From contig CAWBYA010000008.1 in NCBI GenBank assembly GCA_963792895.1, positions 373,495-437,494 on the forward strand: DNA of 64,000 nucleotides, read 5' to 3'. Both the position numbers and the translations under genes were made by a program. This DNA comes from an uncultured Acidimicrobiia bacterium (lineage in GTDB: Bacteria > Actinomycetota > Acidimicrobiia > Spongiisociales > UBA5794). Under the pieces are notes generated by a model, which worked only from the letters and a program-made list of their open reading frames with translations, ran no database searches and was not told the origin of the DNA. This document shows positions 19,682 through 47,049 of this stretch, piece after piece (position 1 is the first letter of the stretch; each line of letters begins with the position of its first letter).

Positions 19682-20434
19682 ATGACAGGTAGGGATGGAT
19701 TCAGCTCGGACGATCTACTGCGCCAGGCGCGTGAGGCGATCGCACGCAAGGACGTCACGGAGAACGATGACGAGCGAGCGGCCTCGTCTCGAACGGAGCC
19801 GACAGCGCCACCGCCCGATCCCTCCCCGACTCTTCCGCGGTTCGAGACCGTCGCGGCGGAGCCGTATGAGCCCCACGAAGAGCCGGATCGCCTCGTGTCC
19901 GAGCGCCCCCGGCCCGCCACCGACGGCATGGTCAGACCGACCGATCGTATCGCTACGGGTGTTCCCCCATCTACGAAACGCCGCCCGGCGGTGGCGGTTG
20001 GAATCGCGATCGCCATCTTCTCGGTCGGCTTTGCGGTCTTCGTCGCCGGGCTCGTCGATGACTCCACCGACGTCCAGAACGTCGGTGTCGGGACATGTCT
20101 CAACGATCCGGGGGGCGAGGTCGTAACCGGGATCGACCCGATCCCGTGTGACGAGCCCCATCAATTCGAGATGATCGGATCCGTGAAGATTCCCGGCGAC
20201 GCCTTCCCCGGGAACGACGAGTCGTTCGACCTCGCCATCGATCGTTGTGTACCGATGTTCGAGGAATACGTCGGCATCGCCTACCAGGACTCGCTCTGGT
20301 GGCTCAATGCCTTCACCCCGACTGCCGAAGGGTGGGAAAGCGGCGACCGCATCGCCAACTGTCTCGTCTTCCAGTTCGACGACGACCGCAACATCGTCTC
20401 GGTGACGGGCTCGGCCAGAGGCGACGGACGCTGA
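19682..20434 (+). CDS. septum-formation-family membrane-anchored protein
   Basis: 250 aa; cytoplasmic N-terminus, single TM (VAVGIAIAIFSVGFAVFVAGLV), extracellular domain with conserved Cys pattern (CDEPHQFE...CVPMFEEY...NCLVFQFDD). Confidence 0.6.
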   Translation: MTGRDGFSSDDLLRQAREAIARKDVTENDDERAASSRTEPTAPPPDPSPTLPRFETVAAEPYEPHEEPDRLVSERPRPATDGMVRPTDRIATGVPPSTKRRPAVAVGIAIAIFSVGFAVFVAGLVDDSTDVQNVGVGTCLNDPGGEVVTGIDPIPCDEPHQFEMIGSVKIPGDAFPGNDESFDLAIDRCVPMFEEYVGIAYQDSLWWLNAFTPTAEGWESGDRIANCLVFQFDDDRNIVSVTGSARGDGR

Positions 20435-20505
20435 CAGGCACGGCAGACCCGCCGCGCCGCCGGGGCCGGACGTTCGTCACTGCGCTGGTCGTCGTCGTTG
20501 CGGCA

Positions 20506-20916
20506 GTGGTGGTGGCGATCGTCGTTGTGAGCTTGTTCGACCGATCAGCCTCTGCCCTGTCGCTGCGTCGAGGAGACTGTCTGCTCGATCCGGGGGCAGA
20601 TCGAGTTGTCGATGTCGACCGGGTCGCCTGTGACTCGCCGCACCAGTTCGAGGTCATCGGTTCGGTGAGCTTTCCCGGCGCGACGTTTCCGGGCGACGAG
20701 GCTCTCGTTGCGCAGGGACGAGCGGCATGCGAGCCCCTGTTCGTCGACTACGTGGGCCAGCCGTACGACACGTCGCCGTGGTTCGTCAATGTGTTCACGC
20801 CGACGGCCGAGGGGTGGGCGAATGGCGAGCGCAGCACCACGTGCCTCGTCTTCCAGTTCGACGAGGCCCTCGAGATTCGGACGGTCACGGGGTCTGCAGC
20901 CGGGTCGGGGCGCTAG
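20506..20916 (+). CDS. septum-formation-family protein, tandem paralog (start uncertain)
   Basis: same domain pattern as upstream gene (CDSPHQFEVIGSV...CEPLFVDYVG...TCLVFQFDE); reading frame open from 20431 but no ATG/GTG/TTG before the TM segment, first GTG at 20506. Confidence 0.45.
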   Translation: MVVAIVVVSLFDRSASALSLRRGDCLLDPGADRVVDVDRVACDSPHQFEVIGSVSFPGATFPGDEALVAQGRAACEPLFVDYVGQPYDTSPWFVNVFTPTAEGWANGERSTTCLVFQFDEALEIRTVTGSAAGSGR

Positions 20917-20934: not shown

Positions 20935-21450
20935 CTACTTCTTCTTCTTCTTGCTCTTCTTGCTCGACCCGGAGCTCTCGCTCTCGATCTTGTACCGAGT
21001 CTCCACCGTCCCGATGGTCGAGCCGTCATCGCTGAACTCGGTGTAAGTGACCTTGATCTCCTCGAAGCTGTTGGCGATGACCACGGTCGGCGGTCCGGCT
21101 TCGTCGTTGCCCGATGCGTTGATCTGGTACGACGTCACCATGACGTTCGTGAGCTCGTATGCGAGGTAGGTGACCCGGGTCCCGCCGTACGTGGCGGTCA
21201 GCTCGACATGGAGCTTGGGGACGACCTCGCCCTTCACGCACTTTTCCTGCAGCTTGGGCGACGCCTTGTCGTAGTCCATGGTGAGCACCATGTCATCGAC
21301 GACGGCAGCCCCGCGCCTGCGGCTTTGCCCGGTTGCGCCACCTCCCGGCCGGCGCACCCCCCAGTCGAGGGCGAGGAGATCGATCCACTTGTCGTGGTGA
21401 GCGTCCCGCGACTCCCCATCGACACCGTCGTAGTTCGCAAAGATGGCCAT
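20935..21450 (-). CDS. hcp: Hcp-family protein (type VI secretion tube protein homolog) with Ser/Lys-rich C-terminal tail
   Basis: MAIFANYDGVDGESRDAHHDKWIDLLALDWG...KASPKLQEKCVKGEVVPKLHVELTATYGG...YLAYELTNVMVTSYQ...VIANSFEEIKVTYTEF aligns along its length with Hcp1 hallmarks (e.g. P. aeruginosa Hcp1); tail SESSGSSKKSKKKKK; GC about 60% vs about 70% flanks; alternative upstream start at 21486. Confidence 0.8.
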   Translation of the reverse strand: MAIFANYDGVDGESRDAHHDKWIDLLALDWGVRRPGGGATGQSRRRGAAVVDDMVLTMDYDKASPKLQEKCVKGEVVPKLHVELTATYGGTRVTYLAYELTNVMVTSYQINASGNDEAGPPTVVIANSFEEIKVTYTEFSDDGSTIGTVETRYKIESESSGSSKKSKKKKK

Positions 21451-22096
21451 CGCACGCTCCGTGTTTGCAGCATCGAACCGAACCAATCGCTCCAGAACCT
21501 ATCGCAACTGGGATGGATGTGCGGCCCGGGCCCACGCTGCAACCGGTGCCGTCGAGGCTGAAAGGTCGACTTCGTCGTCGGTCATCTCCGGCGCCATGCT
21601 GATTCCGGAATGCCCTCTGCGGTTGCGGGCCCCGCCGGCACGCTCAACGGCTACCTCGGCATATCCGAGTCCCATTCCTCGACGCCCAAGACCAACACCG
21701 GTCGATGCACTCATGGACGTGGGCGGCATCCCCGTTTGCAGACTCTGTGATCTGCTCGCTACAAAGCTCGAGTCGTCGGTGACCGTGGTGCGCTCGGGGA
21801 TTGCTTCGACCTGCTCACGATCGAGCGCGACACCCGGTGATGGAAGGCGCCCACGGCGGCACCCCTTCTTCACCTCGCGGTTGGACAGCCGGTCTGAGGC
21901 GGACGCATGACCTTGGCTCAGTCGCCACTGTCGGCAGCCGTCGGTCGGCCGCATGGAACGCGCCGAGTAGTCGACAAGCCGCGCCTGACCAAAGCGCGAG
22001 GTGCCGTTTTTCCGATACTTCACAGGACGTGCGTTCGTGTCGGAGATGCGGTTGATCGGCGTGGTCGGAGGGCCGGCGGCGCCTAGAGTCCGATGC

Positions 22097-22780
22097 ATGG
22101 ACATCCTTCTCATCGCTGGGTTGTGGCTACCCCGCTCGATTTGGGCCGACGTCTGTGGTGAGCTGGAGAGCCGTGGGCACCGGCCGTTGCCGGTGGCTCT
22201 GCCCGGTGTCGATGACGCCTCGACCACGGCGACGTTGGCCGATCAGGTGACGGCCGTCCTGGCTGAGGTCGACGATGCCGATCGACCGATGGTCGTCGGG
22301 CACTCGGCGGCTTGCACTCTGGCGTGGATGATCGCCGACCGGCGGCCGGACACGATCAGTCGGGTCGTGCTGGTGGGCGGATTCCCGTCTTCCCAGGGCG
22401 AGGCCTACGCCGACATCTTCCCAACCGTCGACGGCGCAATGGCCTTCCCGGGTTGGGCACCGTTCGAGGGGGCCGACTCGGGTGACCTCGGCGACGCCGA
22501 TCGGGAACGCATCGCCTCGGAAGCCGTTCCCGTTCCTGAGGGTGTCGCCAAGGGGATCGTCCGGTTGAGCGACGATCGACGCTTCGACGTTCCCGTGCTC
22601 CTGGTCTGCCCCGAGTTCAGCCCCGACCAGGCCAAGGCGTGGATGGACGCCGGCGATGTCCCCGAGCTCAGCCGGGCCAGGCAAGTCGCGTTCGTCGACA
22701 TCGACTCGGGACACTGGCCGATGGTCAGTCAACCCGCTGAACTGGCCCGGATCCTCGACGATGCGACCAAAGAAGGCTGA
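22097..22780 (+). CDS. alpha/beta-hydrolase-fold protein
   Basis: 227 aa; MVVGHSAAC nucleophile elbow (G-H-S-A-A), C-terminal D/H candidates; typical size. Confidence 0.6.
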   Translation: MDILLIAGLWLPRSIWADVCGELESRGHRPLPVALPGVDDASTTATLADQVTAVLAEVDDADRPMVVGHSAACTLAWMIADRRPDTISRVVLVGGFPSSQGEAYADIFPTVDGAMAFPGWAPFEGADSGDLGDADRERIASEAVPVPEGVAKGIVRLSDDRRFDVPVLLVCPEFSPDQAKAWMDAGDVPELSRARQVAFVDIDSGHWPMVSQPAELARILDDATKEG

Positions 22781-23621: not shown

Positions 23622-23849
23622 ACAGCATTCAGGCCGCACAGAACACTCACCACCCAGGGCGTTATCGAGCACACACGAGCGTCCGGGATGCGGCATATCA
23701 TGCAATCGGCGCCACCGCGTCGATACGTGGAAGGCGACGGGAGCGGTGGGTGCTCAGCGTTTCGAGACCGAGGGTGTCTCGGTCCACGTCTGCTCGAAAG
23801 TGCGCTGTTGGGCTGCTCGGTGCTGGATCTCGGCGAGCCGCCGCCACAC

Positions 23850-24275
23850 GTAACCGTCGCCCTCCCGGTGTTCGTCTTCGACACGCTGGCACGACACTGC
23901 GATGACCACCCACCCGCCGGCGACATGGTGTGGACCACACAGCGAGGCGACCTCCTGCAACGCGGCTCCTTCGGCCGCATCTGGAGGAGAGCGGTCGCCG
24001 AGTCGGTGGGGCCACCCTGTCGCGTTCACGATCTTCGACACACCCACGCTGCATGGCTGATTGCCGACGGAGAGCACCCGAAGGCGATCCAGGCGCGGCT
24101 GGGGCACAGCTCGATCACCGTGACGATGGACCGCTACGGACACCTGATGGACGGGCTCGATGACGAGATCGCCGCGCATCTGGACACTCGTGCCGCTGCT
24201 GCCGCGCCCCCACCGCGCCCCGAGGCCCGAGCACCAGCAGAGCCGACCGACCCCCAAACACGTCGAAACCCCTGA
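23850..24275 (+). pseudogene. tyrosine recombinase/phage integrase, C-terminal catalytic fragment only
   Basis: RVHDLRHTHAAWLIADGEHPKAIQARLGHSSITVTMDRYGHLM = integrase box II (HxxR ... Y); no N-terminal SAM/core-binding or box I region upstream; ends 86 nt from tRNA-Glu 3-prime end. Confidence 0.6.
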
Positions 24276-24295
24276 CGCACAGGGTTCTCGATGAT

Positions 24296-24326
24296 GCAGA
24301 AACCCCCGCCTGGCGGGGGTTTCTGC
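24296..24326. terminator. perfect 15-bp inverted repeat hairpin between convergent integrase remnant and tRNA-Glu
   Basis: gcagaaacccccgcc t ggcgggggtttctgc; GC-rich stem, no U-tract (common in high-GC actinobacteria). Confidence 0.4.
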
Positions 24327-24360
24327 CAACGGACTCGCCGAAGGCGAGTACGGTAGGACG

Positions 24361-24433
24361 TAGCCCCGACCGGATTTGAACCGGCGTTACCGCCTTGAGA
24401 GGGCGGCGTCCTAGGCCCCTAGACGACGGGGCC
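24361..24433 (-). tRNA. tRNA-Glu (anticodon CTC)
   Basis: reverse complement folds as cloverleaf: acceptor GGCCCCG/CGGGGCT, D-arm GTCT..GGAC, anticodon stem CCGCC/GGCGG with loop CTCTCAA, T-arm GCCGG TTCAAAT CCGGT; no encoded CCA. Confidence 0.85.
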
Positions 24434-24501
24434 AGGGGAGACGGATATTAACCGCCGACGAGATGCCAACTGCGCAGCTGTGCCGCCGGCGCCCCGCGGA
24501 G

Positions 24502-24573
24502 CTCGGGGGGGAGGACTCGAACCCCCAACGACAGGACCAGAACCTGCTGTGTTACCGATTACACCACCCCCGA
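24502..24573 (-). tRNA. tRNA-Gln (anticodon CTG)
   Basis: reverse complement: acceptor TCGGGGG/CCCCCGA (U1-A72 typical of tRNA-Gln), D-arm GTGT..ACAC, anticodon stem GCAGG/CCTGT loop TTCTGGT, T-loop TTCGAGT. Confidence 0.85.
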
Positions 24574-38045: not shown

Positions 38046-38866
38046 GCACCCGGCTGGTTGAAGCAACCGCCGGCTTCCTCGGTCGAAGGACCAGCAGGCG
38101 CGGCTTCCTGCGTCGCGCGGCCATCGTCGGCTCGGCGCTCGCTGCCGCCCCCGCAGCGTATGTCCTCCGTCCGACCACCGCGTATTCGGCGATCGTCAAG
38201 ACCTGCAGCGACTGCCCGTCCGGATCGCGATGTTGCGGCGGATACACCGAGTTCTGCTGCGCCATGTCCGGGGTCAACACGTGCCCTCCGGGCAGTGTCA
38301 TCGCAGGCTGGTGGCGGGCCGAGGGCTCCGGCTACTGCGATGGCGGGTCCCGCTACTACATGGACTGCAACACCGCAGACTGCGGGGGCTGCGGCTGTGG
38401 GTATTCGGGCACGTGCTCGGACTCATGCGTCGACTGCAGCTGTGGATGCGCCAACAACGACTGCAACCTGAGGCAGGCGTGTTGTGTCCGGTTCCGGTAC
38501 GGCCAATGCAACCAGCACATCGAGTGCGTCGGCCCGATCATCTGCCGGGTCGTCACCTGCGTGCCGCCGTGGGAGTGGGATTCGTCGTGCTCGAAGGCCG
38601 ACGCCCGCGACGACAACACCCGATTCCACGATGCGGCATGTCTCCGGCCGTCGCTCGTGCGCCAGGCGTACCCCGGCGTCGTGTCGGGCGCCACCTTCGA
38701 GCTGCGCGAGTCACTCAGCACAGGCATCCCTACGGAGAAGTACGACTACGGGCTGCCGGGCGACATCCCAATCATGGCGGACTGGTCCGGCTCGGGCCTG
38801 GAGACGGCCGGACTGGTGCGGGGGCGCGCCATGGGGCCCTGGACGCTGGTGCGCTCACGTGGCTGA
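38042..38866 (+). CDS. Tat-exported cysteine-rich protein with C-terminal FG-GAP repeat (possibly 5-prime part of a longer frameshifted gene)
   Basis: GTG start overlapping mauE-like stop; twin-arginine signal SRRGFLRRAAIVGSALAAAPAAYV; 26 Cys in about 150 residues; C-terminal YDYGLPGDIPIMADWSGSG repeat. Confidence 0.5.
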   Translation: MSTRLVEATAGFLGRRTSRRGFLRRAAIVGSALAAAPAAYVLRPTTAYSAIVKTCSDCPSGSRCCGGYTEFCCAMSGVNTCPPGSVIAGWWRAEGSGYCDGGSRYYMDCNTADCGGCGCGYSGTCSDSCVDCSCGCANNDCNLRQACCVRFRYGQCNQHIECVGPIICRVVTCVPPWEWDSSCSKADARDDNTRFHDAACLRPSLVRQAYPGVVSGATFELRESLSTGIPTEKYDYGLPGDIPIMADWSGSGLETAGLVRGRAMGPWTLVRSRG

Positions 38867-38874
38867 TCCGCCAA

Positions 38875-39363
38875 GTGCCCGGGCCAGGCGACCCCGACCT
38901 CGTCGTGGAGTACGGAACCGCAGGCGACGTGCCCGTCGCCGGTGATTGGAATGGCGACGGCGTCGACACGATCGGGGTCGTCCGGGGCAACCGCTGGCTG
39001 CTGAGCAACCACAACGCCGGGGGCACGGCAGACATCGATATCGTGTTCGGCGAGCCCGGCGACATCCCTGTGGCGGGCGACTGGAACGGCGACGGTGTCG
39101 ATACGCCGGGCGTAGTCCGGGGAACACGGTGGATACTGCTCAACGGCTTCGACCCAGCGGGCCCTCGGGTCGAATTCGACTTTGGGCCTGCCGACGGCGT
39201 CCCCATCGTCGGCGACTGGACCGGGGCAGGGCGCCATCTGCCGGGGCGCTTCGTCGCCGGGTCTTGGCAGCTTCGGCTGTCGCTGTCGGACGGACCGGCG
39301 AACAGCACCTTTTCGTTCGGCGACCCGAACGGGGTGCCGGTGGTGTGGGGCCGGGTGCCATGA
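38875..39363 (+). CDS. FG-GAP repeat protein (likely continuation of preceding gene across a 1-nt frameshift)
   Basis: three tandem units GD-x-PVAGDWNGDGVDT-x-GVVRG-x-RW; no signal peptide of its own; first in-frame GTG at 38875. Confidence 0.45.
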   Translation: MPGPGDPDLVVEYGTAGDVPVAGDWNGDGVDTIGVVRGNRWLLSNHNAGGTADIDIVFGEPGDIPVAGDWNGDGVDTPGVVRGTRWILLNGFDPAGPRVEFDFGPADGVPIVGDWTGAGRHLPGRFVAGSWQLRLSLSDGPANSTFSFGDPNGVPVVWGRVP

Positions 39364-40070
39364 CCGCTCTCGTCGTGTTGGAAGCGGTCGTGATCGTGCT
39401 GCTCGTCGTGCTCGTCGCCGGGCTGCTGCGCAGCCACGCCGAGATTCTCCGCAGACTCCACGAGCTCGGCGCGGGCGAAGCCGAGCCAGACCAGGCTGCG
39501 GCGATGGTGGCCGCACCACGCGGCTCGCAGCCGCTCGCCGCCACCGAACTGGCCGGGGTCACGCCCGGCGGGGGCGCCGCTTCAGTTGCGCTTGCCGGGT
39601 CGCGCGGTCTGGTGCTCGTGACGTTCCTCACGTCCGGCTGCTCCTCGTGCCGTCTGTTGTGGCGCGGGCTCGCCAACCCGATTGCGATGCCGCGCAAAGA
39701 CATCCGCACCGTGGTCGTCACGAAAGGCCCAGAAGAGGAGAGCCCGGCCACGATCCGCAACCTCGCCCCTTCGGATGCGATCGTCATCATGTCCAGTCCT
39801 GCGTGGGATGCGTTCCGGGTGCCGGTCGCGCCCTATTTCGCCCTCGTCGACGCCGGGCGCGGCCATGTCATCGGCGAGGGTGCTGCGGGATCGTGGCCCC
39901 AAATCGCGGAACTCGCCGGACGAGCACTGGGTGACGCCACCGGCGATTCCCGTCTCCACGCCGGGACGGCACAACGTCTCGAGGACACCGACGAAGAGCT
40001 GCGCCGGGCCGGTGTCGAGCCCGGCGACCCGAGCTTGTGGGCGCCGCCATCGAACGGTGGTGGACGGTGA
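39360..40070 (+). CDS. TlpA/MauD-like membrane-anchored thioredoxin-fold protein
   Basis: N-terminal TM helix, redox motif LTSGCSSC, thioredoxin-fold spacing; ATG overlaps upstream stop (ATGA). Confidence 0.6.
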   Translation: MTALVVLEAVVIVLLVVLVAGLLRSHAEILRRLHELGAGEAEPDQAAAMVAAPRGSQPLAATELAGVTPGGGAASVALAGSRGLVLVTFLTSGCSSCRLLWRGLANPIAMPRKDIRTVVVTKGPEEESPATIRNLAPSDAIVIMSSPAWDAFRVPVAPYFALVDAGRGHVIGEGAAGSWPQIAELAGRALGDATGDSRLHAGTAQRLEDTDEELRRAGVEPGDPSLWAPPSNGGGR

Positions 40071-40144
40071 CGATCACATCGCTGGGAGTGCTCGTCGCGG
40101 TGTTCGCAGCACTCCGATCGCATTGGTCGCCGTGAGGGGAGTCG

Positions 40145-40729
40145 ATGCTCTCGAGCATCCACCCGCTCGGCGAGCGGGCACGTCACAACCGATGGGTGCT
40201 CACGGTGACTGCCTTCTCGGTGGGCGCTATCGGAGCGGCCGGCGCCGTCGGGGCCGTCCTCGGCATCGCGGGTTCGTACGTGCTCGGCGGACCGACGGGT
40301 AGAACGGTCGCCATCATCGGGGTGGCGGCTCTTGCGGCGGCGGGCCTCGACCTCCTCGGCGCCCGGCCGCCCGGACCCCACCGCCAGGTCAACGAACGCT
40401 GGATCGGCGCGTATCGAGGATGGGTGTACGGCGCAGGATTCGGCGCCCAACTCGGTGCGGGGGTTGCCACGTACATCGTGACATGGGGTGTGTGGGTCGT
40501 CCTCGCTGCCGAGGTGGCCAGTGGATCTGGTGCTGCAGGGGCTGTGGTCGGGCTTGCGTTCGGTGTTGGCCGGTCGCTCCCCGTCGTCGCGGGCCGGTGG
40601 ATCAACACGCCGAGTCGACTGGGCTCCTCGTCGGCTGTCATGCGCCGGCTCGCAGGTCCTGCGTTCCGCCTGATGGCCGCCGCCACTGCCGTTGCAGGCA
40701 TCGCCGGGATCTTCGCGGGAGTGGTGTGA
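40145..40729 (+). CDS. polytopic membrane protein, unknown function
   Basis: 194 aa, Gly/Ala-rich, 4-5 predicted TM helices, no Cys. Confidence 0.45.
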   Translation: MLSSIHPLGERARHNRWVLTVTAFSVGAIGAAGAVGAVLGIAGSYVLGGPTGRTVAIIGVAALAAAGLDLLGARPPGPHRQVNERWIGAYRGWVYGAGFGAQLGAGVATYIVTWGVWVVLAAEVASGSGAAGAVVGLAFGVGRSLPVVAGRWINTPSRLGSSSAVMRRLAGPAFRLMAAATAVAGIAGIFAGVV

Positions 40730-40733
40730 CGTG

Positions 40734-41231
40734 GTGCGCCTGAACAGCGGCGGTGTCGGGTTCGAGTTGCCGTCAGGGTGGGAGGGTCAGATCGACCCGG
40801 GCTCAGGCACATGGCGAGAGTCCCCTCGCATCGGGACGACGGAACCACTCCCCGAGACGCATCCGGACGGAGCGGTGCGACGCGTTGTCGCCCACGTCGC
40901 CAACTTCCCGTTGCCCCCTGGGCGAGGAGACTTCGGCAACGGGGCAGTCCAGACGATGCGAGCGGGCGACGTCTTCGTCACATTGTTCGAATACGACCCG
41001 GAATCGGCGCGGACGCCGCTCTTCCGCCACGAGGGACTCCCCGAGGTCGGCGCCGGCGACTTCGAACCCGCCGCTCTCCAAAAGCCGGTGCCGGGCGGCT
41101 CCGCGATGCAGCGCTTCTTCCGCACCGCCGGGCGTGCGTTCTGCCTCTATGTCGTCGTCGGCAGCCACATCGACCGCGCCGACGTCGTGCCGACGATTCG
41201 CGAACTGTTGGCCGGCGTGGAGATCACGTGA
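40734..41231 (+). CDS. hypothetical protein
   Basis: GTG start immediately after upstream stop; 166 aa; strong third-position GC bias. Confidence 0.4.
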   Translation: MRLNSGGVGFELPSGWEGQIDPGSGTWRESPRIGTTEPLPETHPDGAVRRVVAHVANFPLPPGRGDFGNGAVQTMRAGDVFVTLFEYDPESARTPLFRHEGLPEVGAGDFEPAALQKPVPGGSAMQRFFRTAGRAFCLYVVVGSHIDRADVVPTIRELLAGVEIT

Positions 41232-42229
41232 AGCGGTGGGTCGCGCTTGTCGTGGTCGGAGCCCTCGCCACCGCCGTCGCGGCAGGCCCCCTCGTTGCGG
41301 AGCCCGCTGAAGCGGTCGTGGTGGACTCGCGGTTCACGGACGACGACTGGAACATCCACGAGCCCAACATCAACGCCATCGCCGCGGCGAGCATCACCTT
41401 CGGCTGCAATCCACCGACCAACGACCACTACTGCCCCGATCGCCCGGTCACCAGGGGCCAGATGGCGGCTTTTCTCACCCGTGCATTCGGCTACACCGAG
41501 CGGCTCGCCGACCCCTTCACCGATGACGACGGATCGATCTTCGAAGCCGACATCGAACGTCTGGCCGCAGCAGGCGTGACGCTCGGCTGCAATCCGCCTG
41601 CCAACACGAGGTACTGCCCGGACGATCCAGTCTCGCGGGCGCAGATGGCGAGCTTCCTCGCTCGTGCCCTCGACCTCCAACCGTTGGCGGCCGGGCCGTT
41701 CCAGGACATCTCGGGCAACATCCACAGCTTCACCATCAACGCAATCGCCGCCGCCCGCATCACCTATGGATGCAATCCTCCGGCCAACGACCTCTACTGC
41801 CCGAACGACCTCGTGACCCGCGCCCAGATGGCGAGTTTCCTGGCGCGGGCGCTCGACCTGTCGCCGATCCCGAGCCGCCTCTCGCTCCGCCCGGGATCGG
41901 CATGCGACCGGGTGCGCACCTCGTGCACTGCGACGCTCGCCATCCCCGCCGGCCGCACATTCGAGCTCCGCGAGGGCTGGTACAACGTGCTCCCGTTTGC
42001 CCCGGGCGAGGAAGCCGCCTTCAGGGGGCCGGATACCACCTTCACTGCGACGCTCGACGGGACGCCGCTGTCAATGGCGACACTCGACACCGCATCCACC
42101 ACCATGGCAACGCGTGAGTGGCACGCTGTGATCGCAAGCGTCGGTGCAGGGACCCACGTGCTACGCGGCGTCTGGCAGTGGGACGGCACCACCAACCTCA
42201 CCGTCGTGGTGACCATCGTCGCCGGGTAG
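41228..42229 (+). CDS. secreted protein with three SLH-like (S-layer homology) domains
   Basis: signal peptide; three approximately 60-aa repeats F-x-D-x4-H/F-x3-I-x2-A/L-A-x3-T-x-GCNPP-x-N-x2-YCP-x-D-x-V(T/S)R-x-QMA-x-FL-x-RA; GTG overlaps upstream stop. Confidence 0.6.
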   Translation: MKRWVALVVVGALATAVAAGPLVAEPAEAVVVDSRFTDDDWNIHEPNINAIAAASITFGCNPPTNDHYCPDRPVTRGQMAAFLTRAFGYTERLADPFTDDDGSIFEADIERLAAAGVTLGCNPPANTRYCPDDPVSRAQMASFLARALDLQPLAAGPFQDISGNIHSFTINAIAAARITYGCNPPANDLYCPNDLVTRAQMASFLARALDLSPIPSRLSLRPGSACDRVRTSCTATLAIPAGRTFELREGWYNVLPFAPGEEAAFRGPDTTFTATLDGTPLSMATLDTASTTMATREWHAVIASVGAGTHVLRGVWQWDGTTNLTVVVTIVAG

Positions 42230-42366
42230 CGGGACCACCCGAGAACACTGCCGTGGCGCAGGCGACGAGTCATTGTGCCCGATGCGCTCGATCTGACCGC
42301 CTGGACCGCCGCGAAAGAGCCGGTTGCGGCCTGGCGCGATCGTGCACAGCGGGCCACGATTACGTC

Positions 42367-43338
42367 ATGGAAGCCCTTCACCCCGCAGGGAACGGATCCT
42401 CGACCGGGGACGAGGGCTCCGCCACGATGATCGACTGGCTGATGGAAGGGGATCCGGCCATCCGCTGGCAGACGATGCGTGACCTCGCCGACGCCGCACC
42501 GGCCGAGGTCGCTGCCGAGCGGGCACGGGTTGCGACGGACGGCTGGGGTGCGAGGCTTCTCGAGCTTCAGGACGACGAGGGAACCTGGGCCGGTGCGCTC
42601 TACAGCCCAAAGTGGACATCCACGACGTACACGCTGCTTCTCCTGCACCGGCTCGGCCTACCTCGCGGCCACCCCCAGGCCCTGGCAGGCTGCAGGGTGC
42701 TCTGGGATCGGGCCAAGTGGTTCGACGGCGGCCTCACGCTCGCCAAGACGATCAGGGAGCCGGAGACCTGCATCACCGGAATGCTGCTGCAGCTGGCGGC
42801 TACGTTCGGCCACGACGACACTCGTCTCGACGAGGCCGCTGCATGGCTCATCGGCCAGCAGCTTGCCGACGGAGGCTGGAACTGCGAGTCGATTCGCAGC
42901 GGCTCGCGCCACGGGTCGTTTCACACGTCGATCACGGTGCTCGAAGCACTGGACGCCTATCGGGGGGCCGACGGCGGGATTGCGGTTGCCAGGGCGATGG
43001 AGCGAGGCCGCCAGTTCTTCCTCGACCACCGGCTCTACTGCTCGCATCGAACGGGCGAGGTCGTCGACACGACCTTCACCCGCTTCCCGTTCCCACCGCA
43101 GTGGCACTTCGACGTCGTCCGCGGACTCGAGCACTTCCTGACGCAAGGCGTCGCACCCGACGAGCGGCTCGCCGGCGCCGTCGATGCCGTGTCACGAGCC
43201 CGTCGCCGCGACGGCAGGTGGCCCGTCTACCGGGCCTACCCGGGACGTCGATGGTTCCTGCTCGAACAGAATGGGCCCGGGCGCTGGTCGACGCTCCGTG
43301 CGCTCCGGGTGCTGCGCTGGTGGGGCGGCGCCGGCTGA
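42367..43338 (+). CDS. prenyltransferase/squalene-cyclase-like alpha/alpha-toroid repeat protein
   Basis: 323 aa; about six 45-50-aa repeats carrying Q/D-x2-DGGW motifs (LQDDEGTW, WFDGG, QQLADGGW, RRDGRW). Confidence 0.5.
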   Translation: MEALHPAGNGSSTGDEGSATMIDWLMEGDPAIRWQTMRDLADAAPAEVAAERARVATDGWGARLLELQDDEGTWAGALYSPKWTSTTYTLLLLHRLGLPRGHPQALAGCRVLWDRAKWFDGGLTLAKTIREPETCITGMLLQLAATFGHDDTRLDEAAAWLIGQQLADGGWNCESIRSGSRHGSFHTSITVLEALDAYRGADGGIAVARAMERGRQFFLDHRLYCSHRTGEVVDTTFTRFPFPPQWHFDVVRGLEHFLTQGVAPDERLAGAVDAVSRARRRDGRWPVYRAYPGRRWFLLEQNGPGRWSTLRALRVLRWWGGAG

Positions 43339-45924: not shown

Positions 45925-47049
45925 ATGGTCGTGGACACGCCCCCTACCCGCCGCCACGAAATCGATGCTCTGCGCGTGACAGCGACGCTGCTCCTGATCT
46001 TGTTTCACACCGGGATGGTGTTCACCGCGTTCGATGCGTTCCACATCCAGAACGCCGAACGAAGCGAACTGATCGGCGAAGTCAACAACTTCATCCACCA
46101 GTGGCATATGCCGCTGTTCTTCCTTCTCGCCGGCATGTCGGCTTGGTATGCCTTCCGGTCCCGCCTCGCGCACGAGTTCCGGTTGGAGCGGCTCAGGCGG
46201 CTTCTCGTACCGCTCGTATCCGGGATGCTCCTGATCATCCCGCCCCAGGTCTACGTGGAGCGCATTGCGACGTGGGTAGGCACTCGAAGGAGCCCAATCG
46301 ACTTCTCCGGCACCTTCTTCGAGTGGTATCCCAACACCTTCCAGTGCTGTTATCCCGATGCGAACCTCTCGTGGCACCACCTGTGGTTCCTCATGTACCT
46401 GTTCCTCTACTCCGTGCTGTTCGCCGGCGTCTTCGCTTGGCTCCGCAACGGAGGCGCTCCCTTTCGGATTCGCGTCACCGCAGTGCTCGCTCGAGGATGG
46501 AACCTGGTCCTGATCCCAGCGGCGTACCTCGGAATCGCCGAGGCCGTGTTGCGGCCATCGTTCCCCAACAACCAGGACCTCGTCACCGATCTCGCCAACC
46601 ATGCCAACTATCCGGTCGTGTTCCTGCTCGGCTTTCTCGTCGTGAGCGATCCGCGACTCGACGACGCCATCAATCGGCTGTGGGTGTGGTCGTTGCCACT
46701 GGGAATCGCAGTGATCGTTCTCCCGGACGTGTCCCGACAGTTCGACGCCGCAACACGTGGTGTTGCCGAGTGGCTGGTGATCGTCGGCCTGGTTGGGCTG
46801 GGTCGCAGGTACGTCACCCGGCCTACCGATTGGATCACTCGGTTCTCCGCCATCTCACTCCCCTTCTACATCTGGCATCAGACCGTGATCATCGTTCTTG
46901 CGTACTTCGTCATCCAGTGGGAGGTCGCAATACTGCCCAAGTACGCAACGATCGCGACGCTGGCGTTTCTCATCACCTGGGCACTCTCCGAGGCCGTCGC
47001 ACGCACCAACCCCACTCGGGCGCTGTTCGGCCTTCGACCTCGCGTGTAG
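45925..47049 (+). CDS. acyltransferase-3 family membrane protein
   Basis: 374 aa, about 10 TM helices, N-terminal EIDALRVTATLLLILFHTG motif. Confidence 0.7.
   Translation: MVVDTPPTRRHEIDALRVTATLLLILFHTGMVFTAFDAFHIQNAERSELIGEVNNFIHQWHMPLFFLLAGMSAWYAFRSRLAHEFRLERLRRLLVPLVSGMLLIIPPQVYVERIATWVGTRRSPIDFSGTFFEWYPNTFQCCYPDANLSWHHLWFLMYLFLYSVLFAGVFAWLRNGGAPFRIRVTAVLARGWNLVLIPAAYLGIAEAVLRPSFPNNQDLVTDLANHANYPVVFLLGFLVVSDPRLDDAINRLWVWSLPLGIAVIVLPDVSRQFDAATRGVAEWLVIVGLVGLGRRYVTRPTDWITRFSAISLPFYIWHQTVIIVLAYFVIQWEVAILPKYATIATLAFLITWALSEAVARTNPTRALFGLRPRV

What the first reader, a model, noticed from the sequence alone, without database searches (positions are those of the whole stretch)
20935..21486. Orphan T6SS-type Hcp tube-protein gene with a Ser/Lys-rich tail in a high-GC actinobacterial background
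The minus-strand ORF aligns essentially end to end with canonical Hcp proteins. The N-terminus MAIFANYDGVDGESRDAHHDKWIDLLALDWG matches the MAVDMFIKIGDVKGESKD...EIDVLAWSWG region of Pseudomonas Hcp1. The internal K-x-SP-x-L segment and the YLAYELTNVMVTSYQ and VTYTEF segments follow in the conserved order. Type VI secretion is regarded as absent from Actinobacteria, and nothing resembling TssB/C, VgrG, TssM or ClpV is present within 20 kb on either side. The gene sits in a locally lower-GC stretch and carries a roughly 20-residue SESSGSSKKSKKKKK extension that is not part of the Hcp fold. It could be a horizontally acquired remnant. It could also be the tube subunit of an undescribed extracellular contractile or phage-tail-like apparatus encoded elsewhere. 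A third option is a repurposed hexameric-ring chaperone or effector carrier, which is a known Hcp side function.
Basis: partly seen in the sequence, partly recalled or inferred. Interest (0 to 1): 0.8.

Follow-up and report, generated by a model that had tools for sequence, protein, structure and literature searches.

The report
Stand-alone Hcp ring protein with polylysine tail
A high-GC, Acidimicrobiia-like actinobacterial genome carries a well-conserved copy of the type VI secretion "tube" protein Hcp with no secretion machinery nearby and a lysine-rich tail, one member of a conserved set of Hcp proteins that seem to work outside type VI secretion.

Summary
The minus-strand ORF 20935-21450 (171 aa, ATG start with a GGAG ribosome-binding site) is an end-to-end Hcp/TssD homologue: PF05638 E=7e-30, and the AlphaFold model matches solved Hcp1 structures at TM 0.72-0.87. 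No T6SS or contractile-injection gene was found among the window ORFs I scanned.

It is not a decaying remnant.
- GC3 is 0.86-0.88, the same as or higher than host genes.
- dN/dS against relatives is 0.14-0.21.
- The disordered Ser/Lys tail is a conserved trait of a subfamily: at least 29 of 124 sequences from the closest 90%-identity clusters are leaderless with a "...SGSKKKKKKK" end.
- These genes sit in Acidimicrobiia-like DNA, each in a different housekeeping context.

Tail-less relatives at 73-74% identity lie inside complete T6SS clusters in compositionally different, Planctomycetota-like genomes. Across 160 loci, 81 of 101 canonical copies have T6SS neighbours. None of the 7 K-tail copies do, and none of the 47 copies with a signal peptide or N-terminal extension do. 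That last group includes Dehalococcoidia and genuine Nitrosopumilaceae archaeal contigs.

Best reading: a T6SS-derived Hcp ring repurposed in a T6SS-less monoderm, with polycationic tails that probably bind a polyanion. That mechanism is inferred. I rate it a new variant of a known kind, of moderately high interest.

The parts
20935..21450 (-). Hcp-family gene: 171 codons plus TAG stop, monocistronic
   Evidence: ORF. PF05638 E=7.4e-30, full model length. Hcp fold. GC3 0.86-0.88. Found identically in three assemblies and three read-set assemblies with the same neighbours.
20983..21450 (-). Hcp beta-barrel domain, residues 1-156
   Evidence: Pfam match on residues 4-136. AF2 strands E2-7 to E145-154 plus helix 65-73. 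Foldseek TM 0.72-0.87 to Hcp1 structures 4w64, 8yun, 4tv4, 3eaa and 1y12. It is 73-74% identical to the T6SS-embedded Hcps P0021 and P0024.
20938..20982 (-). Ser/Lys-rich disordered C-terminal tail, residues 157-171 (SESSGSSKKSKKKKK); all Lys codons are AAG
   Evidence: pLDDT <50 for residues 159-171. The same kind of tail is present in at least 29 of the 124 closest cluster sequences held. It is absent from T6SS-embedded relatives, which end ...KVEKGE.
21457..21460 (-). GGAG ribosome-binding site, 6 nt upstream of the ATG at 21450
   Evidence: Read directly from the sequence.
21451..22000 (.). 550-bp spacer between the Hcp gene and the divergent alpha/beta-hydrolase gene; presumably holds the promoter, but nothing was recognised
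   Evidence: No Rfam match at E<=0.1. No sigma-70-like consensus hit. The ORFs there lack coding GC3 bias.
20245..20916 (+). Convergent neighbour: Septum_form (PF13845) protein, the second of two tandem paralogues; its stop lies 18 bp from the Hcp stop
   Evidence: Pfam. A 160-nt direct repeat at 71% identity links the two paralogues.
22001..22780 (+). Divergent neighbour: alpha/beta hydrolase (Abhydrolase_6)
   Evidence: Pfam.
23688..24275 (+). C-terminal remnant of a tyrosine recombinase/integrase (...HDLRHT...GHSSITVTMDRYGHL...)
   Evidence: PF00589 on the called gene in L075 and L076. Sequence read.
24360..24433 (-). tRNA-Glu(CTC); its 3' end faces the integrase remnant, so it is a likely former integration site
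   Evidence: ARAGORN. Rfam tRNA 57.8 bits. L076 carries an extra 1.65 kb with a second integrase remnant inserted exactly at the tRNA 3' end.

Best explanation
The gene encodes a stand-alone Hcp (TssD-type) ring protein. It derives from, or is sister to, the tube protein of a Planctomycetota-type T6SS. It is now kept by selection in Acidimicrobiia-like organisms whose Hcp loci show no T6SS genes.

**Shown**
- The Hcp fold.
- Close kinship (about 70-74% identity) to genuine T6SS tube proteins.
- Native codon usage and purifying selection.
- A conserved leaderless, polylysine-tailed subfamily.
- No T6SS or other shared neighbour at any K-tail locus.

**Inferred**
- It still assembles into hexameric rings, because it retains about 70% identity to tube-forming relatives.
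- It stays in the cytoplasm, because it has no signal peptide.
- Its six disordered polycationic C-terminal tails tether the ring to a polyanion, most likely nucleic acid. Anionic membrane or polyphosphate are alternatives. The precedent is the lysine-repeat tails of actinobacterial HupB, HupS and TopA, and of ring-shaped bacterial Ku.
- The tail starts where canonical Hcp ends. From my recollection of the engineered Hcp1 G90C/R157C nanotubes, that end lies on a ring face, so the tail could limit ring-on-ring stacking and favour single rings over tubes.

**Confidence by step**
- T6SS-independent, selected Hcp ring: about 0.8.
- Polyanion or nucleic-acid binding through the tail: about 0.35.
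For: - **Hcp identity and fold:**
- **Tail-less relatives at 73-74% identity (P0021, P0024) and 67-71% (L002, L003, L005) are T6SS-linked.** P0021, P0024, L003 and L005 lie in full clusters (TssC, ImpE, TssE, TssF, TssG, ClpV, Hcp, VgrG, DUF2169, with a PAAR-like gene in L081). L002 shows ClpV, VgrG and DUF2169 on a shorter locus.
- **The window holds none of these genes**.
- **Architecture tracks context across 160 loci.** Canonical copies have T6SS neighbours at 81 of 101 loci (50 of 60 for loci of at least 8 kb). K-tail copies: 0 of 7. Signal-peptide or N-extended copies: 0 of 47.
- **K-tail loci are compositionally Acidimicrobiia-like** (GC 0.62-0.69, tetranucleotide r 0.92-0.99 with Acidimicrobiia-labelled loci). 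They are unlike the T6SS-bearing loci (GC 0.57-0.58, r 0.75-0.89).
- **Selection:** dN/dS 0.14-0.21 at dS 0.87-1.4. GC3 of the K-tail genes is 0.78-0.88.
- **Tail conservation:** 29 of 124 sequences, with 20 of 28 in one pure NJ clade. Some members have longer histone-H1/HupB-like Lys/Ala tails, such as P0111 and L112.
- **The tail is disordered**.
- **Five K-tail loci have five different housekeeping contexts**.
- **Literature precedent** for lysine-repeat tails that bind DNA in Actinobacteria and on the Ku ring: PMC5714199, PMC5676037, PMC11229371, PMC4889933 (titles and abstracts listed; the papers were not opened).
Against: - No experiment or computation here shows ring formation, localisation or any ligand.
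- The tail could equally serve membrane or cell-wall attachment, a secretion signal, or solubility.
- Only 64 kb of a contig of at least 435 kb, from a multi-Mb genome, was inspected, so a distant T6SS or CIS cluster is not excluded.
- The very high identity to tube-forming Hcps could mean the same constraints (sheath, VgrG, effectors) still act.
- Most sister lineages in monoderms are exported. That points to an extracellular role for the wider family and sits awkwardly with a cytoplasmic nucleic-acid role.
- The taxonomic assignment of the window rests on gene content, composition and MAG labels, not on a marker-gene phylogeny.
Confidence: 0.45

Rival explanations
1. Envelope-associated Hcp. 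Like its signal-peptide-bearing sister proteins, it acts outside the cytoplasm after non-classical export or release by lysis. The polylysine tail anchors rings or short tubes to anionic wall polymers or to the membrane surface.
For: Most orphan relatives in Acidimicrobiia, Dehalococcoidia, Verrucomicrobiales, Saprospiraceae and Nitrosopumilaceae carry an N-terminal basic-hydrophobic signal or anchor in place of the initiator Met. Many have AxA-like cleavage motifs, and the Acidimicrobiia ones have a TRRG twin-arginine. None of these has T6SS neighbours. Polybasic tails are classic binders of anionic surfaces (general knowledge).
Against: The window protein and all 29 K-tail relatives start at the canonical Met with no hydrophobic leader. 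No export system is encoded beside any of them.
Confidence: 0.2
2. Ring chaperone or carrier. The hexamer lumen holds a small partner protein, the known Hcp side function, without secretion. The tail is accessory.
For: Hcp rings chaperone effectors in T6SS-positive bacteria (established knowledge, Silverman et al. 2013, recalled from memory). The lumen-facing extended loop GQSRRRG is invariant across the clade.
Against: No conserved neighbouring gene that could be a client: 0 shared neighbour clusters among 7 K-tail loci. The invariance of the loop is shared with T6SS-embedded relatives, so it is not specific to the orphans.
Confidence: 0.15
3. Ordinary auxiliary (orphan) hcp that feeds a T6SS or another contractile injection system encoded elsewhere in the same genome.
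For: Orphan hcp genes away from the main cluster are common in T6SS-positive bacteria. About 20% of canonical copies in my set also lacked T6SS genes in their flanks. Identity to tube-forming Hcps is very high. Only part of the genome was seen.
Against: - 0 of 7 K-tail and 0 of 47 N-extended loci have T6SS genes, against 81 of 101 canonical loci.
- The K tail never occurs on T6SS-embedded copies.
- The hosts are Acidimicrobiia-like, regarded as monoderm, whereas T6SS is described as a machine of diderm bacteria (abstract of bioRxiv 10.64898/2025.12.08.692957). A RefSeq-wide screen found only sporadic partial clusters on Actinobacteria plasmids.
- T6SS-bearing contigs in the same samples have a different GC and tetranucleotide signature.
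Confidence: 0.1
4. Functionless leftover of a horizontally acquired island that integrated at tRNA-Glu.
For: A decayed integrase remnant (23688-24275) abuts tRNA-Glu 2.2 kb upstream. The sister assembly L076 has a second remnant there. A second contig, L074, shares a 1.5-kb stretch including the gene at about 100% identity inside an otherwise ~78%-identical region.
Against: - The ORF is intact, with a good RBS.
- GC3 is 0.86-0.88.
- dN/dS is 0.14-0.21 over dS of about 1.
- The tail is conserved across dozens of clusters.
- No attR repeat of the tRNA end was found.
- No tRNA was found at five other K-tail loci, and no integrase at the four whose genes were Pfam-annotated.
Confidence: 0.05

Closest known systems
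T6SS-embedded Hcp/TssD of Planctomycetota-type T6SS-i clusters (P0021 in L081, P0024 in L082, L003, L005)
   Same: 73-74% (P0021, P0024) and 67-69% (L003, L005) amino-acid identity over residues 1-156. Same length of core, same invariant GQSRRRG loop, leaderless Met-Ala start.
   Different: Those genes end ...KVEKGE with no tail. They sit between ClpV and VgrG in full T6SS clusters, in DNA of 57-58% GC. The window gene has a 15-residue polylysine tail, no T6SS neighbour, and lies in 67% GC Acidimicrobiia-like DNA.
Structurally solved Hcp1 proteins (P. aeruginosa 1Y12, A. baumannii 4W64, E. tarda EvpC 3EAA, B. pseudomallei 4TV4)
   Same: Same beta-barrel fold with one helix. TM 0.72-0.87, 25-29% identity, phmmer E 1e-14 to 1e-16.
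   Different: Those proteins are secreted tube subunits of characterised T6SSs in Proteobacteria. None has a polybasic C-terminal extension.
Hcp-ET (Hcp with C-terminal extended toxin domains)
   Same: Hcp core with extra sequence appended at the C-terminus.
   Different: As I recall them, Hcp-ET extensions are folded toxin domains of roughly 100 residues or more, with cognate immunity genes, in T6SS-positive Enterobacteria. Here the extension is 15 disordered Ser/Lys residues, with no immunity-like neighbour.
Lysine-repeat C-terminal tails of actinobacterial DNA-binding proteins (HupB, HupS, TopA) and of the bacterial Ku ring
   Same: Low-complexity Lys-rich C-terminal tail appended to a folded core in Actinobacteria. 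In those proteins the tail increases DNA affinity or processivity (PMC5676037, PMC11229371, PMC5714199, PMC4889933). Some K-tail Hcps (P0111, L112) have longer Lys/Ala/Pro tails of the HupB type.
   Different: There is no homology between the folded parts. This is a functional analogy only, and it is untested for Hcp.
Signal-peptide or N-extended orphan Hcp proteins found here (L008, L009, L010, L021, L024, L063, L069, P0067, P0084)
   Same: Same tight Hcp clade (46-68% identity to the window protein) and the same lack of T6SS neighbours.
   Different: They replace the initiator Met with a Sec/Tat-like leader and linker, and they lack the K tail. The window protein is leaderless and tailed.

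Membership tests
Hcp / TssD (Pfam PF05638 T6SS_HCP) | Sequence match to the family HMM above the curated gathering threshold, over the full model | tested here: met
   104.3 bits against a cutoff of 23.5, E=7.4e-30, model 1-129/129.
Hcp / TssD (Pfam PF05638 T6SS_HCP) | Hcp beta-barrel fold | tested here: met
   AF2 pLDDT 79, pTM 0.72. The listed Foldseek PDB hits are Hcp proteins or Hcp1-containing entries (engineered fusions, sheath-tube complexes), TM 0.72-0.87 for the best.
Hcp / TssD (Pfam PF05638 T6SS_HCP) | Assembly into hexameric rings that stack into a tube | not testable with these tools
   Only a monomer could be predicted. Ring formation is inferred from about 70% identity to T6SS-embedded relatives.
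T6SS tube protein TssD in the functional sense (NCBIfam TIGR03344) | Score above the curated subfamily cutoff | tested here: not met
   49.8 bits against a cutoff of 58.9.
T6SS tube protein TssD in the functional sense (NCBIfam TIGR03344) | Genomic association with T6SS core genes (TssB/C, TssE/F/G/K, VgrG, ClpV, TssJLM) | tested here: not met
   None among the 40 window ORFs scanned with Pfam, and no credible tblastn hit across the window for the eight components queried; TssB, TssK, TssJLM and TssA were not separately queried. 0 of 7 K-tail loci have them, against 81 of 101 canonical loci. The rest of the genome was not inspected.
T6SS tube protein TssD in the functional sense (NCBIfam TIGR03344) | Host with a diderm envelope and T6SS-dependent secretion of the protein | not testable with these tools
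   The host is inferred to be Acidimicrobiia (monoderm) from neighbours, composition and MAG labels. There are no secretion data.
Hcp-ET (Hcp with extended toxin domain) | Folded C-terminal toxin domain and an adjacent immunity gene | tested here: not met
   The extension is 15 residues and disordered. The downstream gene is a convergent Septum_form protein.
Phage or eCIS tail tube proteins (T4 gp19/Afp1-like) with sheath and baseplate | Match to tail-tube families and neighbouring sheath, baseplate or spike genes | tested here: not met
   PF05638 is the only Pfam hit. The single PHROG hit is a family of unknown function. There are no close relatives in IMG/VR. The Pfam scans of window ORFs returned no sheath, baseplate or spike family.
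Known anti-phage defence proteins (PADLOC-DB) | Match to any defence-system HMM | tested here: not met
   0 families at E<=0.01.

The most novel reading that the evidence does not exclude
T6SS-independent Hcp rings would be a widespread class that I could not find described in the searchable literature. They occur in organisms regarded as monoderm (Acidimicrobiia, Dehalococcoidia) and in Nitrosopumilaceae archaea, which have no outer membrane. They come in two forms. One is Sec/Tat-exported. The other is cytoplasmic with a polylysine tail, and the window gene is a typical example of it. In this reading the tailed form acts as a ring-shaped nucleic-acid or polyanion-binding protein, a new cellular use of the contractile-tail tube fold outside any injection machine.
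Probability: 0.3. Interest if true: 0.75.

Novelty: new variant of a known kind. Interest (0 to 1): 0.62.

Why it matters
Hcp is treated as a marker of type VI secretion, and automatic annotation calls these genes "T6SS secreted protein Hcp". This window shows a conserved, selected Hcp lineage in organisms with no T6SS genes at any of the loci examined. It is recognisable by simple sequence features: a polylysine tail, or a signal peptide in the sister lineages.

Three consequences follow if this holds.
- Hcp hits alone should not be read as evidence of T6SS in metagenomes of soils and sediments.
- The tube fold has been co-opted for at least one other role in monoderm bacteria and archaea.
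- The 70%+ identity to working tube proteins gives a natural matched pair (tailed orphan versus T6SS-embedded) for asking which Hcp properties are intrinsic to the ring and which depend on the machine.

Tried and rejected
- **Conserved neighbours.** All-vs-all clustering of ORFs from 74 and then 160 loci found no cluster shared by 3 or more K-tail loci. For N-extended loci the only recurrent neighbour was a second Hcp paralogue.
- **T6SS genes in the window.** tblastn with the T6SS protein clusters gave only one marginal TssE hit, E=0.001 at 46345-46638 on the strand opposite the Acyl_transf_3 ORF there. I treated it as chance.
- **Genomic-island boundary.** A search for a repeat of the tRNA-Glu 3' end found none, so island limits cannot be set.
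- **Phage origin.** No relatives in IMG/VR. One PHROG of unknown function.
- **Defence system.** No PADLOC hit.
- **Regulatory RNA or promoter in the 550-bp upstream spacer.** Nothing found.
- **Organism names.** The listing of cluster members returned no taxon names for the NCBI copies.
- **Literature.** Searches for orphan or stand-alone Hcp in Actinobacteria, monoderms or Acidimicrobiia found nothing relevant.
- **More K-tail loci.** The JGI metagenome scan added only one (L112); most new loci were canonical or N-extended.
- **Recent foreign DNA.** Considered and rejected on codon usage.
- **Assembly artefact.** Considered and rejected, because the same gene and flanks recur in independent assemblies.
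Full report

Yes. The minus strand carries an ORF at 20935..21486. The biologically likely start is the ATG at 21450. It gives MAIFANYDGVDGES..., the canonical Hcp N-terminus, and a GGAG lies 6 nt upstream. The product is 171 aa.

- Pfam PF05638 (T6SS_HCP) matches from model position 1 to 129 of 129 at E=7.4e-30, 104 bits against a cutoff of 23.5.
- phmmer against all PDB chains finds only Hcp proteins and engineered Hcp1 fusions, E down to 2e-16.
- An AlphaFold2 model built on 46 homologues has mean pLDDT 79 and pTM 0.72. It shows the Hcp beta-barrel with one helix. Its Foldseek neighbours in the PDB are Hcp1 of Acinetobacter, Burkholderia, Edwardsiella, Salmonella and Pseudomonas, at TM 0.72-0.87.
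- The stricter NCBIfam TssD model scores 49.8 bits, below its 58.9 cutoff.
- The tail is residues 157-171 (SESSGSSKKSKKKKK), so about 15 residues rather than about 20. It is predicted disordered.

**2. Surroundings**

Pfam scans of 40 ORFs between positions 2 and 57074 show housekeeping genes or no hit. ORFs at about 49.6-52.1 kb and beyond 57 kb were not scanned with Pfam. The families found include:
- pyruvate kinase, gltX, PEP carboxylase and serA;
- an ABC-2 transporter, SDR and luciferase-like monooxygenase;
- PIG-L, PASTA-VanW and FAA hydrolase with the Rv2993c-like N-domain;
- two tandem Septum_form (PF13845) proteins.

This gene content and the 67% GC fit Actinomycetota. The best labelled genomic relative, at 75% identity, is an Acidimicrobiia MAG.

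No T6SS component was found. tblastn over the whole window with TssC, TssE, TssF, TssG, ClpV, VgrG, ImpE and DUF2169 from related loci gave one marginal hit on the strand opposite the Acyl_transf_3 ORF.

The gene is monocistronic. It converges on a Septum_form gene whose stop is 18 bp from its own. A 550-bp spacer upstream holds nothing I could recognise.

The "lower GC" is slight and is not a codon-usage signal. GC3 is 0.86-0.88, at or above the neighbours.

**3. Relatives and what they show**

The protein database returns 556 homologues, and the top 120 are 67-79% identical. Three architectures appear within this tight clade.

- **(A) Canonical.** 159-160 aa, leaderless, ending ...KVEKGE or ...EGES.
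- **(B) K-tail.** Leaderless with a C-terminal Lys-rich tail (...E-R-x-x-S-G-S-K-K-K-K-K-K-K), 164-182 aa. This group holds 29 of the 124 sequences held from the closest clusters, including the window protein.
- **(C) N-extended.** These lack a Met at the canonical position. Instead they have an N-terminal basic-hydrophobic leader, often with an AxA-like site, sometimes followed by a Pro/Ala linker. In several Acidimicrobiia the leader has a TRRG twin-arginine.

Genomic context separates the three cleanly. I clustered all ORFs of 160 loci from GTDB species genomes, JGI metagenomes and look-ups of individual proteins. I named the clusters through Pfam on one reference locus.

| Architecture | Loci with at least one T6SS core gene | Same, loci of at least 8 kb |
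|---|---|---|
| A, canonical | 81 of 101 | 50 of 60 |
| B, K-tail | 0 of 7 | 0 of 5 |
| C, N-extended | 0 of 47 | 0 of 19 |

Type-A relatives as close as 73-74% identity (P0021, P0024) sit between ClpV and VgrG. Their clusters are complete: TssC-ImpE-TssE-TssF-TssG-ClpV-Hcp-VgrG-DUF2169, with a PAAR-like gene in L081.

The five K-tail loci with annotated genes have five unrelated housekeeping contexts:
- alpha/beta hydrolase | Septum_form;
- DUF1684 | DUF2807;
- MetE | small unknowns;
- methylmalonyl-CoA mutase | ACT;
- FGGY kinase | CDP-alcohol phosphatidyltransferase.

Composition separates the hosts as well.
- K-tail loci have 62-69% GC. Their tetranucleotide profiles correlate at 0.92-0.99 with loci labelled Acidimicrobiia.
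- The T6SS-bearing loci have 57-58% GC. They correlate with each other and with Planctomycetota-labelled loci, but only at 0.75-0.89 with K-tail loci.

**4. Is it a relic?**

No.
- Against five K-tail homologues, dN/dS is 0.14-0.21 at dS 0.87-1.4. The lineage is therefore old and under purifying selection.
- Each copy has the high GC3 of its host.
- The tail is compositionally conserved. 20 of 28 tailed sequences form one pure neighbour-joining clade.
- In a tree of locus-derived sequences, the window protein groups with L001 (Acidimicrobiia) and L006. It is sister to the T6SS-embedded L002/L003/L005 group. All of these sit inside a larger clade otherwise made of orphan N-extended proteins. 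This tree is NJ with a midpoint root, so the direction of transfer is not resolved.

**5. Horizontal origin**

Some signs exist. A C-terminal tyrosine-recombinase remnant (23688-24275) abuts tRNA-Glu (24360-24433), with tRNA-Gln next to it, 2.2 kb from the Hcp start. A sister assembly, L076, has 1.65 kb more, with a second decayed integrase, inserted exactly at the tRNA 3' end.

I found no attR repeat. No tRNA was found at five other K-tail loci, and no integrase at the four whose genes were Pfam-annotated. The association is therefore local and may not involve the Hcp gene.

Another contig from the same sample, L074, is about 100% identical over 1.5 kb: the hydrolase 3' end, the spacer and Hcp. 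Downstream it is syntenic but only about 78% identical. Upstream it is unrelated and carries a full-length integrase. This is either a recent recombination tract or an assembly chimera.

**6. How it most likely works**

*Shown.* It is an Hcp-fold protein very close to working tube subunits. It is leaderless, has a disordered polycationic tail, is conserved under selection, and lies in Acidimicrobiia-like genomes with no T6SS context.

*Inferred.*
- It forms hexameric rings, given its identity to tube-formers.
- It remains intracellular.
- It uses six Lys tails to bind a polyanion.

Nucleic acid is the leading candidate. In Actinobacteria, lysine-repeat C-terminal tails are a recurrent device for DNA binding (TopA PMC5714199, HupB PMC5676037, HupS PMC11229371). 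The ring-shaped bacterial Ku also uses a C-terminal extension to control its DNA bridging and threading (PMC4889933). All four are known here from the titles and abstracts listed.

Some subfamily members carry longer HupB/H1-like Lys/Ala/Pro tails (P0111, L112).

From my recollection of the engineered Hcp1 G90C/R157C nanotubes, the Hcp C-terminus lies on a ring face. If so, the tail might also disfavour stacking.

I put about 0.8 on "selected, T6SS-independent Hcp ring" and about 0.35 on the polyanion or nucleic-acid mechanism.

*Rivals.*
- An envelope-associated role like that of the exported sister proteins: 0.2.
- A ring chaperone for an unlinked client: 0.15.
- An auxiliary hcp for a distant T6SS or CIS: 0.1.
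- A functionless relic: 0.05.

**7. Comparison with the known, and novelty**

It is a member of the Hcp family by sequence and fold. It fails the contextual criteria for a functional T6SS tube protein, and it is below the TIGR03344 cutoff.

It is not an Hcp-ET, because it has no folded toxin domain. It is not a phage or eCIS tube, because it has no such neighbours or viral relatives. It is not a known defence protein.

Literature searches found nothing on stand-alone Hcp in Actinobacteria, monoderms or Acidimicrobiia. A RefSeq-wide survey reports only sporadic partial T6SS gene sets on Actinobacteria plasmids.

I rate it a new variant of a known kind. The fold and family are known. The tail, the host range and the T6SS-free context are not described in what I could search.

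**8. Verdict**

Its interpretation is partly supported: the "remnant" and "hidden contractile apparatus" options lose, and "repurposed ring" gains.

Interest is moderately high (0.62). This is a clean, testable case of the T6SS tube fold living outside T6SS. It belongs to a broader set of orphan Hcps that includes exported forms in Dehalococcoidia and in genuine Nitrosopumilaceae contigs. The function remains inferred, and the rest of the genome was not inspected.

Noticed in passing
L008, L009 (two copies), L010, L012, L014-L016, L019, L021-L023, L063, L066, L068, L069, L004, L007, L020; proteins P0067, P0084: A large set of Hcp-domain proteins lack the canonical initiator Met. They carry instead an N-terminal basic-hydrophobic signal peptide or anchor, and in Acidimicrobiia a TRRG twin-arginine plus a Pro/Ala linker. 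0 of 47 such loci have T6SS neighbours. Hosts include Acidimicrobiia, Dehalococcoidia (two on 3.3-3.5 Mb records), Verrucomicrobiales and Saprospiraceae.
   Followed up: partly
L018 (3-428), L024 (2156-2776), L061 (506-1486): Hcp homologues at 48-61% identity to the window protein lie on 33-35% GC contigs binned as Nitrosopumilaceae. L018 carries archaeal hallmark genes (aTrm56, TFIIE-alpha/TFE, archaeosine TGT C2/PUA), so the archaeal host looks genuine. L024 and L061 have hydrophobic N-terminal leaders, and L061 has a 166-aa N-extension.
   Followed up: partly
window 23688-24573; L076 5413-7763: tRNA-Glu(CTC) and tRNA-Gln(CTG) sit next to a decayed tyrosine-integrase remnant. The sister assembly L076 has a second, frameshifted integrase remnant inserted exactly at the tRNA-Glu 3' end, so this is an integration hot spot. 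A perfect GC-rich hairpin at about 24298-24326 lies between the integrase remnant and the tRNA.
   Followed up: partly
L074 9039-10550 versus L075 and the window: A 45-kb contig from the same sample is about 100% identical over 1.5 kb: the hydrolase 3' end, the spacer and the whole Hcp gene. Downstream it is syntenic at only about 78% identity. Upstream it is unrelated and has a full-length integrase. This is either a recent recombination or transfer tract centred on Hcp, or an assembly chimera.
   Followed up: partly
L004 10478-11326, L020 4318-5460, L063 10477-11337, L066 10447-11343, L068 2490-3500: Several signal-peptide Hcp genes are followed immediately by a second, longer Hcp-domain protein (282-381 aa, PF05638 E 2e-8 to 5e-26, with extra N- or C-terminal sequence). 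This is a recurrent two-gene Hcp module with no T6SS.
   Followed up: partly
L112 207-863; protein P0111; L092 2630-3910: Variant tails occur. L112 and P0111 have 30-36-residue Lys/Ala/Pro/Ser tails that resemble HupB or histone H1 tails. L092 has an Hcp domain followed by a Pro-rich linker and a C-terminal region of about 200 aa of unknown function.
   Followed up: no
window 19682-20434 and 20245-20916 (+): Two tandem Septum_form (PF13845) paralogues lie directly downstream, convergent with Hcp. Their C-terminal domains share a 160-nt repeat at 71% identity. The listed ORFs overlap, so the true start of the second gene is probably later. Gene callers gave 83 aa for it and 250 aa for the first.
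   Followed up: no
window 38356-43338: A run of GC3-biased ORFs (38356-38745, 40136-40729, 40674-41231, 41794-42657, 42118-43338) has no Pfam family at E<=1e-4. Their function is unknown and they do not look like T6SS or CIS genes.
   Followed up: no
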